Origin: Anaerolineales bacterium | GTDB lineage: Bacteria > Chloroflexota > Anaerolineae > Anaerolineales > UBA6668 | Length of the DNA stretch: 37,424 bases | Assembly (NCBI GenBank): GCA_020630225.1 | Contig: JAHDBS010000006.1 | Coordinates: 1-37,424 of the forward strand | Direction: 5' to 3' | Shown: positions 3,952 through 37,377 of the stretch, one piece after another | Layout: the number at the start of each line of letters is the position of its first letter | How positions within the stretch are numbered: position 1 is the stretch's first letter | Position numbers and translations under genes: made by a program | The notes under the pieces: generated by a model | Seen by the model: only the letters and a program-made list of their open reading frames with translations | What the model was told of the DNA's origin: nothing | The model's database searches: none

Positions 3952-4767
3952 CTACTTCTTACCTAAATGCTGCGCCTGCCGGAATGCAGCCTCTACAGCC
4001 TGATCAATTGCTGTACGGAGACCATGGGCTTCTAAGGCTGCTACTGCAGCAGCAGTTGTGCCACCGGGCGAAGTTACCTGATGGCGTAAAGTAGACACTG
4101 TTGTCTCAGATTGATATGCATACTCCGCTGCGCCACGCACCGTTTGCTTCGCCAGCAGTTCCGCTTGTGGTCGAGTTAGCCCCATGCGCACCCCTGCGTC
4201 TGCAAAGGCCTCAATGAACAAAAACACATAGGCTGGGCCGGAACCATTCATCGCAGTTGCCATATCGATATAGGTTTCACCTGGTAATTCAAGCTGCTCG
4301 CCAAGTGCGCTCAGAATAACTTCTGTTTGACGCCGCTGCTCAGCAGACACGGCTTCACCAGCTGTCCAAGCTGTCATTCCCACCCCAACTTGTGCAGGCG
4401 TATTTGGCATCGAACGCACAATTCGGTTATGACCTGTTAGCGCTTCAATTGTTTCCAACGTAGCGCCAGCCATAATTGAAATCAGCAGTGCATCATGATT
4501 GAGTTCACCGCGCAAGTCTGGCAATGCGTTGGGCGCGATCTGCGGCTTGACGGCTAACACAACAACCGAAGCACCTTGAGCAGCTTCGGAGTTGCTTGCT
4601 ACGGACTGAATTCCATAGGCCGCTGTCAATTCTGCGCGTCGCTCAGCCCGCGGTTCAGATGCAGTAATTTGATCTGGCGTCACCAGTTCTCTTTTGATTA
4701 AGCCACCAATGATAGCCCCAGCCATTGAGCCAGCGCCAATAAATGCAATTTTTTGATTTTCAAACAT
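3952..4767 (-). CDS. proC: Pyrroline-5-carboxylate reductase
   Basis: IAFIGAGSMA Rossmann motif, LAVKPQ, RSMPNTP, GSGPAY, VTSPGGTT. Confidence 0.97.
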   Translation of the reverse strand: MFENQKIAFIGAGSMAGAIIGGLIKRELVTPDQITASEPRAERRAELTAAYGIQSVASNSEAAQGASVVVLAVKPQIAPNALPDLRGELNHDALLISIMAGATLETIEALTGHNRIVRSMPNTPAQVGVGMTAWTAGEAVSAEQRRQTEVILSALGEQLELPGETYIDMATAMNGSGPAYVFLFIEAFADAGVRMGLTRPQAELLAKQTVRGAAEYAYQSETTVSTLRHQVTSPGGTTAAAVAALEAHGLRTAIDQAVEAAFRQAQHLGKK

Positions 4768-4782
4768 GTGGATCTCGGGAGG

Positions 4783-5364
4783 CTAAGCGAAGTAGCCTAA
4801 TGCTAAGCGGATTTTTGTTTCGACGTCATCGGGCGCGTCTTGTGGAATATTTTGCAATGCTGTCTGTGCTTCAACGAGGCTATACCCTAACGCTGTTAGC
4901 GCTGCAATAACTTCGGTGTCGGTTTCATCAACTAATGCTGACCCACCCGTGTTGATGAAGTCGGTTTGCAACTTACCACGCAGATTAAAGATAATTTTTT
5001 CAGCAGTCTTCTTGCCAACGCCTGGAACACGCGAAATGATGCCAGCTTCTTCAGTTGCGACAGCTTGGCGTAATAAGTCTGGTGAAAGTGTGGAAATGAT
5101 GGCAAGCGCCATCTTTGGCCCTACCCCAGAAATAGAGAGGCAGGTTTCATACATGGTACGCTCTTCTTCGGTTTTGAAACCGTAAAGCGTAAGCGAGTCT
5201 TCCCGCACCACCAGATGGGTAAACAAACTAATCTGACGCCCCACCCCAACCGAACCATCAAATACAGAAGACGGCACCAACAAGCGCAGCCCCACCCCAC
5301 CAACTTCAACAATCAAAGTGTCGTCAGTAAAGCTCAGAATAGTTCCGCGAATTGAGGCAATCAT
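4783..5364 (-). CDS. ruvA: Holliday junction branch migration protein RuvA
   Basis: MIASIRG, VREDSLTLYGF, ISGVGPKMAL, VPGVGKKTAEKI, ALTALGYS. Confidence 0.97.
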   Translation of the reverse strand: MIASIRGTILSFTDDTLIVEVGGVGLRLLVPSSVFDGSVGVGRQISLFTHLVVREDSLTLYGFKTEEERTMYETCLSISGVGPKMALAIISTLSPDLLRQAVATEEAGIISRVPGVGKKTAEKIIFNLRGKLQTDFINTGGSALVDETDTEVIAALTALGYSLVEAQTALQNIPQDAPDDVETKIRLALGYFA

Positions 5365-5395
5365 TTATTGATCCAGTAAATCTCTAGTGTGGTTA

Positions 5396-5499
5396 CGCGA
5401 ATGTGTAATGCGTAACGTGTAAGTTCGAGCTGAATACGCGGGCGAAAACTTCAAAAATCATTTTCGCGAACGCGCTTACACGTTACAAATTACGCATTA
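5396..5499. repeat. Heptamer-armed palindromic element, copy A
   Basis: Left arm GTGTAAT GCGTAAC GTGTAAG (5403-5423), 51-nt spacer (5424-5474), right arm CTTACAC GTTACAA ATTACGC (5475-5495) overlapping the ruvC stop. Confidence 0.85.
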
Positions 5500-5983
5500 G
5501 ATAGTTCGTCTGCATGCTATGCAAGTGACAAATTGCGACAGCAAGTCCATCGGCGGCATCGTCTGGGCGTGGGATTTTTTCTAACCCTAGCAGCGTCTTC
5601 ACCATCTGTTGGATTTGCGGTTTTTTCGCGCCGCCATAACCACAGACGCTCTGCTTGATTTGCATCGGTGTATATTCACCGGGAGCTAGACCATTGTCTG
5701 CCATGGCGAGAATAGCAACGCCACGTGCCTGCGCCACGGTGATCCCCGTGGTCACATTCTTTGAAAAGAACAGTTTTTCAATGCCAGCACTCACCGGCTT
5801 ATGCTCTTTGATTAGTTCATCGAGTTCACGATAAATAATCTGCAACCGCTCATGCATTGGCATCTTAGCTGGTGTAGTGACCACACCATAGGCAACGGGC
5901 TTGAGGGAACTCCCTACTTGGCGAACAAAGCCGTAGCCCGTGGTCGCGGTACCAGGGTCAATGCCGAGGACGATTTCAGACAT
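5483..5983 (-). CDS. ruvC: Crossover junction endodeoxyribonuclease RuvC
   Basis: LGIDPG, IEKLFF..N, QARGV, YTP.QIK.SVCGYG.A.K.Q, DDAADGLAVAICH. Confidence 0.97.
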   Translation of the reverse strand: MSEIVLGIDPGTATTGYGFVRQVGSSLKPVAYGVVTTPAKMPMHERLQIIYRELDELIKEHKPVSAGIEKLFFSKNVTTGITVAQARGVAILAMADNGLAPGEYTPMQIKQSVCGYGGAKKPQIQQMVKTLLGLEKIPRPDDAADGLAVAICHLHSMQTNYLMRNL

Positions 5984-5986
5984 AAG

Positions 5987-6089
5987 GTGTAATGAGTAAT
6001 AAGTAATTGTGGTTTGGGCGCGCGGAAGAAAACTTCAAATACTGAAGACTCAAGCGTGCTTACACTTTACTCATTACAAGTTACGCATT
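5987..6089. repeat. Heptamer-armed palindromic element, copy B
   Basis: Left arm GTGTAAT GAGTAAT AAGTAAT (5987-6007), 51-nt spacer (6008-6058), right arm CTTACAC TTTACTC ATTACAA GTTACGC (6059-6086) overlapping the yebC stop. Confidence 0.85.
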
Positions 6090-6836
6090 GGAAACCGCTT
6101 CAATCACAGCATCAGTCAACTCAAGGTTGTGATACACATTCTGCACATCATCAACGTCTTCGAGTTTTTCAATGGTGTTGAGCACTTGCAACGCTTGGGC
6201 CGGTTCCAATTCCATGGTGTTCTTGGGTTCCATGCGCAGCATTGCGTCTTCAGGCGTGTGACCAGCTTCGGAAAGGCCAGATGCGATTTCACCGTATGCA
6301 GACACTGGGCCAGTGAGTTCAATCATTTCTTCATCCCAAACAACGTCTTCAGCGCCAATTTCTAGCGCCAATTCAAAGGCAGCATCTTCATCGATGTCAC
6401 CAGTTGGGATCGTGAAATAGGATTTACGCTCAAACTGCCAGCCCACTGAGCCGTTTTCGCCCAAGCTGCCGCCATATTTATTGAACACTGCCCGCACATC
6501 AGACACAGAGCGACGCTTGTTATCTGTCACACACTCAACAATGACTGCAATCCCGTGGTTTGCGTAGCCTTCGTAGCTGACTTCTTCAAACGCTGCACCG
6601 TCTTTGTCTTCACCAGTGCCGCGCTTGATCGCGCGTTCGATGTTGTCTTTCGGCATATTTGCAGCACGTGCTTTATCAACCGCGAGCCGCAAGCGAATAT
6701 TTGTATCTAAGTCGCCGCCGCCTTCACGCGCTGCAATCACGACATCTTTTGCAAGCTTGGTAAACAACTTACCGCGCTTTGCATCTTGCGCACCTTTGCG
6801 GTGCTTAATGTTGGCCCATTTACTATGTCCAGCCAT
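6081..6836 (-). CDS. yebC: YebC/PmpR family protein
   Basis: MAGHSKWANIKHRKG, NMPKDNIERAIK, YEGY, TDN..R, DDVQNVYHN. Confidence 0.97.
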   Translation of the reverse strand: MAGHSKWANIKHRKGAQDAKRGKLFTKLAKDVVIAAREGGGDLDTNIRLRLAVDKARAANMPKDNIERAIKRGTGEDKDGAAFEEVSYEGYANHGIAVIVECVTDNKRRSVSDVRAVFNKYGGSLGENGSVGWQFERKSYFTIPTGDIDEDAAFELALEIGAEDVVWDEEMIELTGPVSAYGEIASGLSEAGHTPEDAMLRMEPKNTMELEPAQALQVLNTIEKLEDVDDVQNVYHNLELTDAVIEAVSNA

Positions 6837-6883
6837 GAATAAATAACCTCTGATTGAGAAAGATTTCGTTTTTCTAAATTATA

Positions 6884-6990
6884 GAGTAATTTGTAATGAG
6901 TAAGGTGTAACGCGTTCAAGCACACAGTATTTCAATGCAACACTCCGCACACCCAAGTCAAAATTACTCATTACTCGTTACTTATTAGAC
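6884..6990. repeat. Heptamer-armed palindromic element, copy C (inverted relative to A and B)
   Basis: Left arm GAGTAAT TTGTAAT GAGTAAG GTGTAAC (6884-6911), 51-nt spacer (6912-6962), right arm ATTACTC ATTACTC GTTACTT ATTAGAC (6963-6990) overlapping the VWA gene stop. Confidence 0.85.
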
Positions 6991-8358
6991 GAAGAGCTCA
7001 TCCACAGCCGCTGCCAATTCCTTCAAATTCCGCACCTGATACACCTCATCTGCAAAATCAGCGTAACGATGCATGTCGGAGTCACCTGTACCCCATAGGC
7101 GTTTGGCTTCCGGGTTGAACCACAAGACCCGTTTGGCGCGGCGTTGCAACGCTTCAGCCAAGTCTAGCCGTGGATCGTAGTAGTTGTTGCGGCCATCGCC
7201 ACAGAATATCACTGTGGTGCGGGCATCCACCGAGTCAGAAAAGTCTTTGAAGAAACCGGCTAAGCTCGAGCCAAGGTCTGTACTGTAATAGCCCGGTGGC
7301 AGCTTGGTCAGCACGTTTGGAATTGCCACATCTGGTCGATCATGCGCTAGGTCGGCGGTGACCTCTTCCATATGATCGATAAACGCAAACGAACGCGTGC
7401 GGCCAAATTGATCTTGCATTTCATAGACCAAACGCAGTAAGAACTCCACCACGGCGCGCATGGACGTTGACACGTCGCAAATCAGCACGAACTTTGGTTT
7501 CTCGCGCCGTTTTTTATGCTCAATTTCAAATGGAATGCCGCCAGTGCGTAAGCTTTGACGCATAGTAGCCCGAATATCGACTTGCGGGCCTTTGCCGCGC
7601 TTCATGCGCAGTGCCGCGCGCGTGCGCAGTTTGGCAGCAAGGCGCGTAACCAACTTCCGAAGATGATCTGACTCTTCGTAATTTAGCGCTTGAAACGGCT
7701 TTTCTTCCAACTTAGCTTCGTCAAATTTCTGGGCAGGCTGGTCAGCCATTTTTTCAGCCAGATTTTGACCAACGTAGTTTTGCACCTGTTGCTCTAGCGA
7801 ATCTAGGTTGTTGAGTAACCCTTCTTCCAACTGCTGCAAGGCTTCTTCCGACATCCCCATGTCTGACAGCTGTTGCAGAAATTTTTCAATTTCCTCCATC
7901 AGCTTGTCTAAGCCAAGCTTGTTTTGCATGCGACGTTCCATCCAACTTTGCGAACGCGCATTGCTCAGCCGATCCAGCCCTGCTTCCCACGCTGCTTGCC
8001 CCATCTGGGCATCGTTTAGCTGCATGCCTTGCATCAACTGCGACATCATCTTGCTCATGTCGCCCATCAACGCTTCAAGCGCCGCTTGCAACATCGCCTT
8101 AGATTGTTCGTCTAATTCATCAGCCGGATTAAGTAACGGCGGCGTGCCCACCTGAAAGAACATCGGAAACATGTGGTCAAACGTCTCAATGTCCATGTAA
8201 TCTTTGATCAACGTCGCCCGCACCGCCGTCTTGAACGTCTCGCGATCTTGAATCCCAAGCGCCTCAATCGCCCGAAACGCATCCTGCGACTCAGCAAGCG
8301 AAACGCGGACTCCGGCAGAGCGGAGGGCGGAGATGAATTGGGTGATGCGTTCGTTCAT
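6985..8358 (-). CDS. CoxE-like VWA (von Willebrand A) domain protein
   Basis: N-terminal F..ALR.AG.RVS..E..DA; helical Q/E/M-rich middle; D.RATMR.SL..GG.P; MIDAS motif DVSTSM, STDLG, GDGRNN, W.NPE...WGTGDS.M. Confidence 0.88.
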   Translation of the reverse strand: MNERITQFISALRSAGVRVSLAESQDAFRAIEALGIQDRETFKTAVRATLIKDYMDIETFDHMFPMFFQVGTPPLLNPADELDEQSKAMLQAALEALMGDMSKMMSQLMQGMQLNDAQMGQAAWEAGLDRLSNARSQSWMERRMQNKLGLDKLMEEIEKFLQQLSDMGMSEEALQQLEEGLLNNLDSLEQQVQNYVGQNLAEKMADQPAQKFDEAKLEEKPFQALNYEESDHLRKLVTRLAAKLRTRAALRMKRGKGPQVDIRATMRQSLRTGGIPFEIEHKKRREKPKFVLICDVSTSMRAVVEFLLRLVYEMQDQFGRTRSFAFIDHMEEVTADLAHDRPDVAIPNVLTKLPPGYYSTDLGSSLAGFFKDFSDSVDARTTVIFCGDGRNNYYDPRLDLAEALQRRAKRVLWFNPEAKRLWGTGDSDMHRYADFADEVYQVRNLKELAAAVDELFV

Positions 8359-9282: not shown

Positions 9283-9317
9283 ATTGGCTGTTGAACATTG
9301 AAAATTGACTATTGTCT
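9283..9317. repeat. Tandem heptamer array (NTTGANN type)
   Basis: ATTGGCT GTTGAAC ATTGAAA ATTGACT ATTGTCT; overlaps the stop codon of the CoxD-like ATPase. Confidence 0.65.
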
Positions 9318-10220
9318 GCGCTTCTGTTCCCGCGCCATAATCATCTTCGCTTTGGCAACATCGGTTTCGTGCTTCAGCAGCAAGGTCAGCGTGTTTTCCA
9401 GCAATTCTGGAGTAATGCTACTGGCATTCAGCTTCACCAACGCCCGTGCCCAGTCCAAAGTTTCAGAAATACTCGGCGATTTTTTCAAATCCATTTGACG
9501 CAGGCTTTGGACGAGCTTGACAGACTGTACCGCCATGCTTTCGCTCAGATCTGGCACTTTGAGCTGCACAATGCGCAGTTCAGCTTCTTGAGTTGGATAG
9601 TCCACATGCAGGTAGACACAGCGTCGTTTGAGAGCTTCAGACAAGTCGCGCGTGTTGTTAGAGGTCAAAATCACCAGCGGTTTGTGCTTGGCCTTGATAG
9701 TGCCAATTTCTGGCACTGTGACTTGGAAATCGCTCAGGATTTCTAGCAGAAAGGCTTCAAATTCGCTGTCGGCGCGGTCAATTTCGTCAATCAATAAGAC
9801 CACGGGCTTGTCTGAGGTAACAGCCCGCAAGAGCGGGCGCGGCAACAGAAAGCGTTCAGAGAAAAAGACATTCTCTTCCTCTGCCAACCGATCGGCGGCG
9901 GCTGTCAGTGTGGTTGTGTCAGCCAGTACATCTTGCAGCTTGTCGCGCAACAGTTGGGTATACAACATCTGCTTGGCATATTCCCACTCATACAGAGCCT
10001 TGGTTTCATCTAATCCTTCATAACACTGCAATCGAATAAGTTCACAGCCTGTCGCGCTGGCCCACGCCTTGGCTAACTCCGTCTTCCCAACGCCTGCGGG
10101 GCCTTCTGCTAAGAGCGGCTTTTCCAGTGCATCTGCCAAATACAAGACAGTCGAAATTTCTTCAGTGGCAATGTAGCCTTGCGATTGTAGTTGTTCAGAA
10201 ACGTTAGTAGGAGAAGTCAT
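9309..10220 (-). CDS. MoxR-family AAA+ ATPase, CoxD-like
   Basis: EGPAGVGKTELA (Walker A), RLQCYEGLD..KALYEW.Y.KQ, LLIDEIDRAD.EFEAFLLE.LSDFQV..PE.G, LTSN.TR.LSEALKRRC. Confidence 0.93.
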   Translation of the reverse strand: MTSPTNVSEQLQSQGYIATEEISTVLYLADALEKPLLAEGPAGVGKTELAKAWASATGCELIRLQCYEGLDETKALYEWEYAKQMLYTQLLRDKLQDVLADTTTLTAAADRLAEEENVFFSERFLLPRPLLRAVTSDKPVVLLIDEIDRADSEFEAFLLEILSDFQVTVPEIGTIKAKHKPLVILTSNNTRDLSEALKRRCVYLHVDYPTQEAELRIVQLKVPDLSESMAVQSVKLVQSLRQMDLKKSPSISETLDWARALVKLNASSITPELLENTLTLLLKHETDVAKAKMIMAREQKRRQ

Positions 10221-10221
10221 T

Positions 10222-10256
10222 ATTGATAGTTGAGAGTTAAAAATTGACTATTGCGT
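10222..10256. repeat. Tandem heptamer array (NTTGANN type)
   Basis: ATTGATA GTTGAGA GTTAAAA ATTGACT ATTGCGT fills almost the whole ftsK to ATPase gap. Confidence 0.7.
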
Positions 10257-29180: not shown

Positions 29181-29215
29181 CGCGAATGCGTAAGGGGTAA
29201 TGTGTAATTTATAAC
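29181..29215. repeat. Solo arm of the GTAA heptamer element
   Basis: CGCGAAT GCGTAAG GGGTAAT GTGTAAT TTATAAC; same ACGCGAATG lead-in as copy A at about 5395. Confidence 0.7.
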
Positions 29216-37084: not shown

Positions 37085-37377
37085 ATTGCGGGTCCCCTAT
37101 GGTTGTGTAATAGCCAAAATTGACTGCAATGAGATTAACGTTCTGGCTGGCTCTTACTGACGTTTCGCCAACTGAACTCGGTTACTTACAGTTATTTGTT
37201 ACGAAACACTGACTGTGGAATTTGGAGAAAGGAGTTGTAGTGATTGTTCACAACTTTCTCCGTATAAAAAACACATGTTAGTTCATCACGCATGGTGATC
37301 CCCTAACATGTGCTTTTTATAGGCACAAAAGAACGACTTCCAGCCCATAAAGGACTGGAAGTCGTAAAAAGTTGTGA

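What the first reader, a model, noticed from the sequence alone, without database searches (positions are those of the whole stretch)
5396..6990. Repeat family with inverted heptamer arms and a fixed 51-nt homologous spacer in three consecutive intergenic gaps
Seen: the ruvA/ruvC, ruvC/yebC and yebC/VWA gaps each hold the same architecture: 3-4 tandem NNGTAAN heptamers, a spacer of exactly 51 nt (5424-5474, 6008-6058, 6912-6962), then 3-4 inverted NTTACNN heptamers. The spacers are homologous. A and B align without gaps and share CGCGG-NN-GAAAACTTCAAA at the same offset (spacer position 14). The reverse complement of C matches B at 14 of the first 19 nt and shares AAATACTG, so C is an inverted copy. 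Known: short tandem heptamer repeats (STRR) are described in filamentous cyanobacteria. Inference: the fixed spacer length, conserved core and both orientations point to a discrete mobile unit (non-autonomous, mobilised in trans) or a repeated protein-binding/RNA module rather than slippage. No mobilising gene is in the window. I do not recognise this element as described.
Basis: partly seen in the sequence, partly recalled or inferred. Interest (0 to 1): 0.72.

Follow-up and report, generated by a model that had tools for sequence, protein, structure and literature searches.

The report
Gene-less heptamer-armed hairpin cassettes
Three short hairpin-shaped repeats between DNA-repair genes belong to a family of at least 27 in this genome and are likely gene-less copies of a small cassette that, in a sister species, carries a four-helix-bundle gene between the same 7-base repeat arms; how they spread is untested.

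Summary
Three gaps (ruvA/ruvC, ruvC/yebC, yebC/VWA) hold inward-facing GTAA/TTAC heptamer arms around homologous 51-nt loops (z 3.6-5.5); C is inverted. But 51 nt is not the family rule. The 27 paired elements in this genome have 11-121-nt loops. A subfamily of 8 (8 more in sister genome G001; 0 of 400 other genomes of the class) keeps this loop, with two CGCG motifs 32-34 nt apart. In G001 the same arms enclose a TIGR02436 four-helix-bundle gene. 22 of 26 such genes tested have inverted repeat arms (0 of 25 controls). Best reading: gene-less relatives of four-helix-bundle hairpin cassettes, copied to gene junctions before G000 and G001 split and inherited since. Copy C's orientation differs from its G001 orthologue, so a loop flip explains it without a new insertion. 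Against: no gene-bearing copy with this loop was found, and 0 of 119 arm-first loci lie near such a gene. Convergent heptamer pairs are in print (Xanthomonas), and so is a heptamer-bearing, ORF-carrying 23S intervening sequence (Coxiella). This scan noted the cassette link before on other genomes (107 findings matched my search words). The mobiliser and the function are untested.

The parts
5399..5423 (.). Copy A, left arm (tandem heptamers, GTAA phase); on the mRNA (- strand) it is the downstream arm, 34 nt before the ruvA start
5424..5474 (-). Copy A loop, 51 nt; conserved motifs at 5437-5441 and 5469-5474
5475..5499 (.). Copy A, right arm; supplies the ruvC stop codon (5483-5485) and encodes its last residues (MRNL)
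5983..6007 (.). Copy B, left arm; abuts the ruvC start codon (5981-5983)
6008..6058 (-). Copy B loop, 51 nt; same orientation as A. At this site G001 carries a different heptamer family
6059..6090 (.). Copy B, right arm; supplies the yebC stop codon (6081-6083) and its last residues (NA)
6880..6911 (.). Copy C, left arm; on the mRNA it ends 43 nt before the yebC start
6912..6962 (+). Copy C loop, 51 nt; inverted relative to A and B and relative to its G001 orthologue
6963..6987 (.). Copy C, right arm; its outermost TAA is the stop codon of the VWA/CoxE-like gene (6985-6987)
4783..5364 (-). ruvA (host gene)
   Evidence: Pfam RuvA_N, HHH_5, RuvA_C
5483..5983 (-). ruvC (host gene)
   Evidence: Pfam RuvC, E 4e-51
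6081..6836 (-). yebC/TACO1 (host gene)
   Evidence: Pfam PF01709, PF20772
6985..8358 (-). VWA CoxE-like gene (host gene)
   Evidence: Pfam PF05762
29184..29214 (.). Fourth, unpaired arm of the same family upstream of glyQS; no partner arm found

Best explanation
The three elements are inward-facing 7-base repeat arms around a homologous loop, predicted to pair into a long hairpin, and are likely gene-less, non-autonomous relatives of a cassette whose full form carries a four-helix-bundle (TIGR02436/PF05635, 23S-IVS-type) gene between such arms. SHOWN: G000 has 27 paired GTAA elements, all without a gene, mostly between co-directional genes; one arm often supplies the upstream stop (TAA at period 7 stops all three frames) and the other ends near the next ATG. 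A subfamily with a loop of about 53 nt was copied to at least 8 unlinked sites. The same arm sequence encloses a four-helix-bundle gene in G001. Orthologous junctions in relatives are empty or carry other heptamer families. INFERRED: a cassette lost its gene by deletion between the arms, and the short derivative spread in trans before G000 and G001 split. It is tolerated because it lands at stop/start junctions. Loops later flipped or were exchanged between sites by recombination through the arms. In mRNA the roughly 20-bp arm stem is likely a double-strand RNase (RNase III-type) site, as shown for the Coxiella IVS. The two conserved CGCG motifs likely mark a recognition feature of the mobile unit rather than an mRNA structure, since both orientations occur in mRNA. 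The mobilising enzyme is unknown; the four-helix-bundle protein as an RNA-binding cofactor is a guess.
For: Same arms around a gene: L068 (G001) has the G000-type arms on both sides of a 153-aa TIGR02436 ORF (70 bits, cut-off 24) whose ATG overlaps the last arm TAA. Gene-first test: inverted arms (z>=3) at 13 of 17 four-helix-bundle genes from G000, G001, G002 and G006 and 9 of 9 further ones, against 0 of 25 ordinary window genes. GxxExxY genes in G000 show the same layout by eye (4 of 5; the fifth is cut by a contig end). Same operon: G006 has a four-helix-bundle gene with AATCCCA-type arms right after ruvA (L020), a gap that is 15 nt and empty in the window. Junction preference: 19 of 28 elements lie between co-directional ORFs. 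Empty and filled sites: 40 of 58 relatives have a yebC-ruvC gap of 30 nt or less; 6 have period-7 arms (score >=10/14) and 3 more by eye, in several different units. Of 31 G001 rows compared with G000, 12 share the element, 4 have another arm family, 4 have no arms, and the rest are unclear or uninformative. One GTAA element holds a second arm family nested inside it (L134). Copying: loop homology at 8 G000 sites; the loop profile hits only these 8 at E<1. Precedent: the Coxiella 23S IVS has heptamer repeats, a 28-bp terminal stem and an S23p ORF, and is cut by RNase III (PMC4990558, passages).
Against: Only 1 of 26 four-helix-bundle genes tested has GTAA arms, and its interior shows no link to the 53-nt loop, so no parent of this subfamily was found. 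None of 119 arm-first loci from the GTDB scan has a four-helix-bundle or GxxExxY gene within 300-900 nt (small home-made profiles). Of 74 ruvC loci, none has such a gene in the yebC-ruvC or ruvC-ruvA gap; the only hit was L020, after ruvA. No clean insertion with a target duplication was seen, and gain cannot be told from loss. No transposase is linked to the arms. RNAalifold found only 4 inner pairs with no compensatory change, and loop-only folding is mostly weak. Motif conservation over neutral drift is significant for all 8 copies (2 of 5000 simulations) but borderline for the 6 picked by length alone (317 of 5000).
Confidence: 0.6

Rival explanations
1. Host-selected cis-regulatory module. 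Whatever its origin, the hairpin and its two CGCG motifs 32-34 nt apart are kept because they set processing, stability or translation of downstream cistrons, or bind a host protein on DNA. This can hold together with the best explanation.
For: Motifs are 74-86% (5') and 62-75% (3') identical against 34-40% in the loop middle, while four-fold sites between G000 and G001 are only 31-51% identical. Motif spacing is 32-34 nt in 15 of 16 copies. Arms end close to start codons. A translational role was proposed for TAACTGA arrays (PMC4679880, abstract, part 1 of the results and the summary section).
Against: The same junctions are empty in most relatives or hold unrelated units. The subfamily is confined to one genus sample (0 of 400 other class genomes). 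Both loop orientations occur in mRNA. There is no covariation, no Rfam match and no terminator or promoter excess.
Confidence: 0.2
2. A classical MITE or REPIN moved by a separate transposase (RAYT/Y1 or DDE), unrelated to four-helix-bundle cassettes.
For: Inverted ends, a less conserved spacer of constrained length, and a hairpin match the REPIN description (PMC3116915, passages). G000 has 2 Y1-transposase matches.
Against: The contigs with the two Y1 genes (C321, C533) carry no GTAA arm. The arms are tandem direct heptamers, not palindromic REPs. No target duplication was seen. The one gene found inside these arms is a four-helix-bundle gene.
Confidence: 0.1
3. Local origin: slippage builds heptamer arrays at stop codons and template switching makes the mirror arm; loop similarity is incidental.
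For: Arm units vary within and between copies, loop lengths span 11-121 nt, and most non-subfamily loops show no clear similarity to the window loops. Arm units differ between orthologous cassettes while left and right stay matched.
Against: Loops at 8 unlinked sites are homologous. One arm sequence dominates dozens of sites in two genomes. Slippage may still explain arm length and unit drift.
Confidence: 0.07

Closest known systems
ORF-bearing 23S rRNA intervening sequence (Coxiella burnetii S23p IVS; PMC4990558, passages)
   Same: Terminal inverted stem, tandem heptamers with variable copy number, and, in the G001 cassette L068, a PF05635/TIGR02436 ORF in the loop.
   Different: The window copies lie at mRNA gene junctions, not in rRNA, and have no ORF. 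RNase III cleavage is untested here.
Convergent GGGAATC heptamer pairs of Xanthomonas and GGGGA(C/T)T repeats of Nostoc (PMC4692102, passages)
   Same: Heptamer arrays in inward-facing pairs (70 and 75 cases), intergenic, mostly between co-directional ORFs, near stop and start codons; one is marked at ruvA.
   Different: Different unit, with no G-tracts for a quadruplex. The passages read report no homologous fixed-length loop family and no link to a cargo gene; its supplements were not read.
TAACTGA intergenic arrays of Beggiatoaceae, and cyanobacterial STRR heptamers (PMC4679880; the STRR name is recalled)
   Same: Heptamers carrying stop codons, 2-6 copies, overlapping upstream gene ends and ending just before start codons.
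   Different: Reported there as direct arrays, with one inverted case. Here they are paired, with a conserved loop.
REPINs (PMC3116915, passages)
   Same: Non-autonomous doublet of inverted ends forming a hairpin, with a spacer less conserved than the ends.
   Different: The ends are not palindromic REPs and no RAYT carries them.

Membership tests
23S rRNA intervening sequence (ORF-bearing) | Located inside a 23S rRNA gene | tested here: not met
   Flanked by ruvA, ruvC, yebC and a VWA gene; no Rfam match
23S rRNA intervening sequence (ORF-bearing) | Terminal inverted repeats forming a long stem | tested here: met
   Predicted stems, z -2.3 to -4.8
23S rRNA intervening sequence (ORF-bearing) | S23p/PF05635 ORF in the loop | tested here: not met
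   Window loops are 51 nt. Met only for the G001 cassette L068 with the same arms
23S rRNA intervening sequence (ORF-bearing) | Excision by RNase III | not testable with these tools
   Needs an in vitro assay or RNA end mapping
Heptamer-armed four-helix-bundle cassette (seen in this scan; not found in print) | Inward-facing tandem short-repeat arms at a stop/start junction | tested here: met
Heptamer-armed four-helix-bundle cassette (seen in this scan; not found in print) | Same arm sequence found around a cargo gene | tested here: met
   1 case, L068; 1 of 26 genes tested; 0 of 119 arm-first loci
Heptamer-armed four-helix-bundle cassette (seen in this scan; not found in print) | Loop derived from the cargo gene or its leader | tested here: inconclusive
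   The loop profile hits nothing outside the 8 elements in G000 at E<1; it was not run on other genomes' cassettes
Convergent intergenic heptamer pairs (Xanthomonas type) | Inward-facing heptamer arrays, intergenic, near stop and start codons | tested here: met
Convergent intergenic heptamer pairs (Xanthomonas type) | G-tracts able to form a quadruplex | tested here: not met
   Commonest units are TAAGGTG, TAATGAG and TAATGCG
REPIN | Inverted doublet forming a hairpin | tested here: met
REPIN | Ends are palindromic REPs also flanking a RAYT gene | tested here: not met
   2 Y1 matches, on contigs without arms; genome 78.5% complete
MITE | Terminal inverted repeats, multiple dispersed homologous copies | tested here: met
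MITE | Target-site duplication | tested here: inconclusive
   None visible at 4 armless orthologous sites, but the flanks are only about 80% identical
MITE | Autonomous partner with a transposase and the same ends | tested here: not met
   No gene inside any of 27 G000 pairs; none inside the 11 unpaired or weakly paired arms inspected

The most novel reading that the evidence does not exclude
The roughly 53-nt-loop subfamily is the minimal mobilisable substrate of an undescribed class of mobile element, the heptamer-armed four-helix-bundle cassette. It moves through a single-stranded, possibly RNA, intermediate. The all-frame-stop arms let it land harmlessly at stop codons, and the two CGCG motifs at fixed spacing are the signal read by the cassette protein (an Avd-like fold, recalled) together with a host or reverse-transcriptase enzyme. 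That would give the unexplained heptamer arrays of many bacteria a source and give a 100-nt test substrate.
Probability: 0.15. Interest if true: 0.8.

Novelty: new variant of a known kind. Interest (0 to 1): 0.33.

Why it matters
Paired heptamer arrays at bacterial gene junctions and the large four-helix-bundle family (TIGR02436) both lack an explanation in the papers found. This genus gives a small natural series: a gene-bearing cassette, gene-less copies with the same arms, a dispersed fixed-length subfamily, a flipped loop, a nested element, and sites where the arms changed unit. The subfamily's conserved motifs and spacing are concrete targets for a cleavage, binding or mobility assay. The general architecture is in print and the cassette link is a repeat finding of this scan, so the added value is modest.

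Tried and rejected
Rfam scan of 4500-8000 at E<=1: 0 matches. Promoter and terminator scan: no excess over shuffles and no site on an element. RNA runs: no RNA holder listed; this is no evidence either way. YebC search of plasmids was uninformative. Loose loop-motif patterns without full arms scored no better than their reversed controls and served only to pick candidates. Metagenome scan with RuvC gave only distant loci. Arm-first GTDB scan: 0 of 119 loci with a four-helix-bundle or GxxExxY gene. Consensus folding of the loop: 4 pairs, no compensation. A second suspected loop flip (C259) was rejected: same-orientation z 4.1 against flipped 2.5. Three G001 gene-less copies begin like the start of a four-helix-bundle ORF, but the match is only 6 nt beyond the arm and I did not count it. 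More G-to-A than C-to-T variants in the CGCG motifs (read by eye) could hint at one functional strand, but the copies are few and related. A recalled paper on small dispersed repeats of Nostoc was not held and is not used. Literature searches listed no paper describing four-helix-bundle cassettes with heptamer arms outside rRNA; subscription journals are mostly missing from that library. No supplements were read; those of PMC4692102 may list loops between paired repeats.

Full report
Context. The window is G000:C260, a 4.84-Mb draft that is 78.5% complete. Pfam names the flanking genes ruvA, ruvC, yebC/TACO1 and a VWA CoxE-like gene, all on the minus strand, with proC after ruvA. The organism is probably an Anaerolineae member (Chloroflexota). 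This is inferred from a fused glycyl-tRNA synthetase (the taxonomic link is recalled) and from named records with the same arms.

Observation. The loops are homologous beyond shuffles: A/B z 5.1, A/rcC z 3.6, B/rcC z 5.5. Each element folds into a long hairpin on either strand; on the mRNA strand the energies are -36.7, -30.6 and -29.3 kcal/mol, with z -3.9, -4.8 and -2.3. Rfam gave 0 matches at E<=1.

The family in this genome. A heptamer profile finds 61 arms (31 left, 30 right) against 1 on one shuffled strand. In the distance scan all pairs faced inward. I curated 27 paired elements, leaving out C155, which lies in a 9,385-nt exact duplicate of C149. Their loops measure 11-121 nt; 6 of 27 are 51-53 nt. 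None holds a gene. Of 28 elements scored (the 27 plus one degenerate pair), 19 lie between co-directional ORFs, 2 between convergent, 2 between divergent, and 5 could be scored on one side only (a rough ORF rule). In the window each mRNA-upstream arm supplies the stop codon of its gene and, for ruvC and yebC, the last residues. TAA at period 7 stops all three frames, which explains why such arms are tolerated there (inference).

The window's subfamily. Eight G000 loops (A, B, C, C455, C97, C304, C240, C37) and eight G001 loops align on two motifs, a CGCG-type motif next to one arm and a CCGCG-type motif 32-34 nt later in 15 of 16. A loop-only profile hits these 8 G000 copies (its own training set) and nothing else at E<1. 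The strict pattern occurs in 0 of 400 other genomes of the class. Pairwise identity is 74-86% in the first motif, 62-75% in the second and 34-40% in the middle. A uniform-rate model reaches this spread in 2 of 5000 runs for G000, 0 of 5000 for G001, but 317 of 5000 for the six G000 copies picked by length alone. The alignment was anchored on the first motif, so some excess is expected. The inner structure is not established: RNAalifold gives 4 pairs with no compensatory change.

Orthologous sites. Four-fold degenerate sites between G000 and G001 are 31-51% identical, near saturation, while the proteins are 85-96% identical. I compared 31 rows of G001 elements with G000; these cover only part of G001's elements, since one search listed about half its matches. 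Twelve sites are shared, 4 carry another arm family in G000, 4 have no arms, 1 is unclear, and 10 are uninformative (masked, contig end, no orthologue, or a merged row). At the 12 shared sites loop lengths are mostly inherited, and exactly one loop is flipped: copy C (flipped z 4.5, same z 1.5). So C's orientation needs no new insertion. Subfamily loops at orthologous sites are no closer than paralogues in 5 of 6 pairs (40-52%, mean of all pairs 48%). G000 C455 is closest to G001 C87a (78%) rather than to its own orthologue (42%), which suggests loop exchange between sites. In 58 other genomes or contigs with yebC next to ruvC, 40 have a gap of 30 nt or less; 6 have period-7 arms by score and 3 more by eye, in several different units. 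G001 itself has a different family at site B. One GTAA element holds a second family nested inside (L134).

Link to gene-bearing cassettes. G000 has 7 PF05635 genes over the cut-off and 5 GxxExxY genes, most bracketed by inverted short-period arms of other sequences between a stop and a start. An inverted-arm test gave z>=3 for 13 of 17 genes (one miss has a masked flank) and 9 of 9 more, against 0 of 25 ordinary genes. One of these 26, L068 in G001, has the GTAA arms themselves around a TIGR02436 ORF. At the same site G000 has its reciprocal best hit (60% identical) with different arms. Other same-site pairs also differ in arm unit while left and right stay matched. This means either concerted turnover of the arms or replacement by a related cassette; these genes diverge faster than their neighbours. 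G006 has such a cassette directly after ruvA. Against the link: none of 119 arm-first loci had such a gene nearby, none of 74 ruvC loci had one in the gaps of A or B, and no parent of the 53-nt loop was found.

Mechanism. Most likely (0.6) these are gene-less, non-autonomous relatives of four-helix-bundle hairpin cassettes, spread in an ancestor of G000 and G001 and then inherited, with occasional flips, exchange, loss and replacement. Dispersal, junction placement and the shared arms are shown. Deletion of the gene, movement in trans, RNase III cleavage and any role of the protein are inferred. Rivals are a host-selected regulatory module (0.2, compatible), a classical MITE or REPIN (0.1; the two Y1 transposase contigs carry no arms) and local slippage (0.07).

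What is known. PMC4692102 (passages) reports 70 and 75 convergent heptamer pairs in two Xanthomonas genomes, near stop and start codons, and found them generally not associated with IS elements or transposons. PMC4990558 (passages) shows heptamers, a terminal stem, an S23p ORF and RNase III excision for the Coxiella IVS. PMC4679880 (abstract, part 1 of 5 of the results, summary section) describes TAACTGA arrays ending just before start codons. PMC3116915 (passages) defines REPINs. PMC8700078 (passages) added nothing. Six searches listed no paper on armed four-helix-bundle cassettes outside rRNA. Earlier notes of this scan reach the same reading on other genomes (107 matches); I had recorded my reading before opening them, and they are not counted as support.

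Verdict. The feature is real and correctly seen. It is a new variant of a known kind: a genus-restricted, fixed-loop subfamily of paired heptamer hairpins tied by one shared-arm cassette to the four-helix-bundle family. Interest 0.33.

Noticed in passing
L008 (G000:C332:527-3832): A complete-looking diversity-generating retroelement on one strand: a 433-aa target gene ending in a variable-repeat-like stretch, a 114-aa Avd-like gene (weak PF05635 hit), an AAC-rich template-repeat-like stretch and a 348-aa reverse transcriptase. The part labels are from recalled DGR layout. A second RT lies on C50.
   Followed up: partly
G000:C145:9797-10204 vs L069 (G001): This four-helix-bundle pair is 98% identical with similar arms, while the three other same-site G000/G001 pairs checked (C254, C349, C384) are 60-80% identical; this suggests recent horizontal exchange or unusual constraint.
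   Followed up: no
G000:C149 and C155: A 9,385-nt exact run shared in opposite orientation; likely an assembly duplicate.
   Followed up: partly
window 29184-29214: An unpaired GTAA arm upstream of glyQS with no partner arm.
   Followed up: partly
G000:C214:41988, C223:2691, C568:1920: GTAA arms followed inward by arrays of other heptamer families (TCACT-, TAGCT-, TCACTAA-type): mixed or nested elements.
   Followed up: no
window 37255-37329: A 35-nt inverted repeat, 80% complementary with a 5-nt loop, upstream of the oligopeptide ABC transporter operon.
   Followed up: no
window 9283-9314 and 10222-10253: Two copies of a 32-nt repeat (78% alike) on either side of the AAA-ATPase gene 9309-10220.
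   Followed up: no
L017-L043, upstream of yebC: A TG(G/C)TATAAT extended -10-like motif recurs upstream of yebC in most relatives printed.
   Followed up: no
L134:894-1057: A GTAA element with a second (CTGAT-type) arm pair inserted right after its left arm, the same family that occupies site B in G001.
   Followed up: partly
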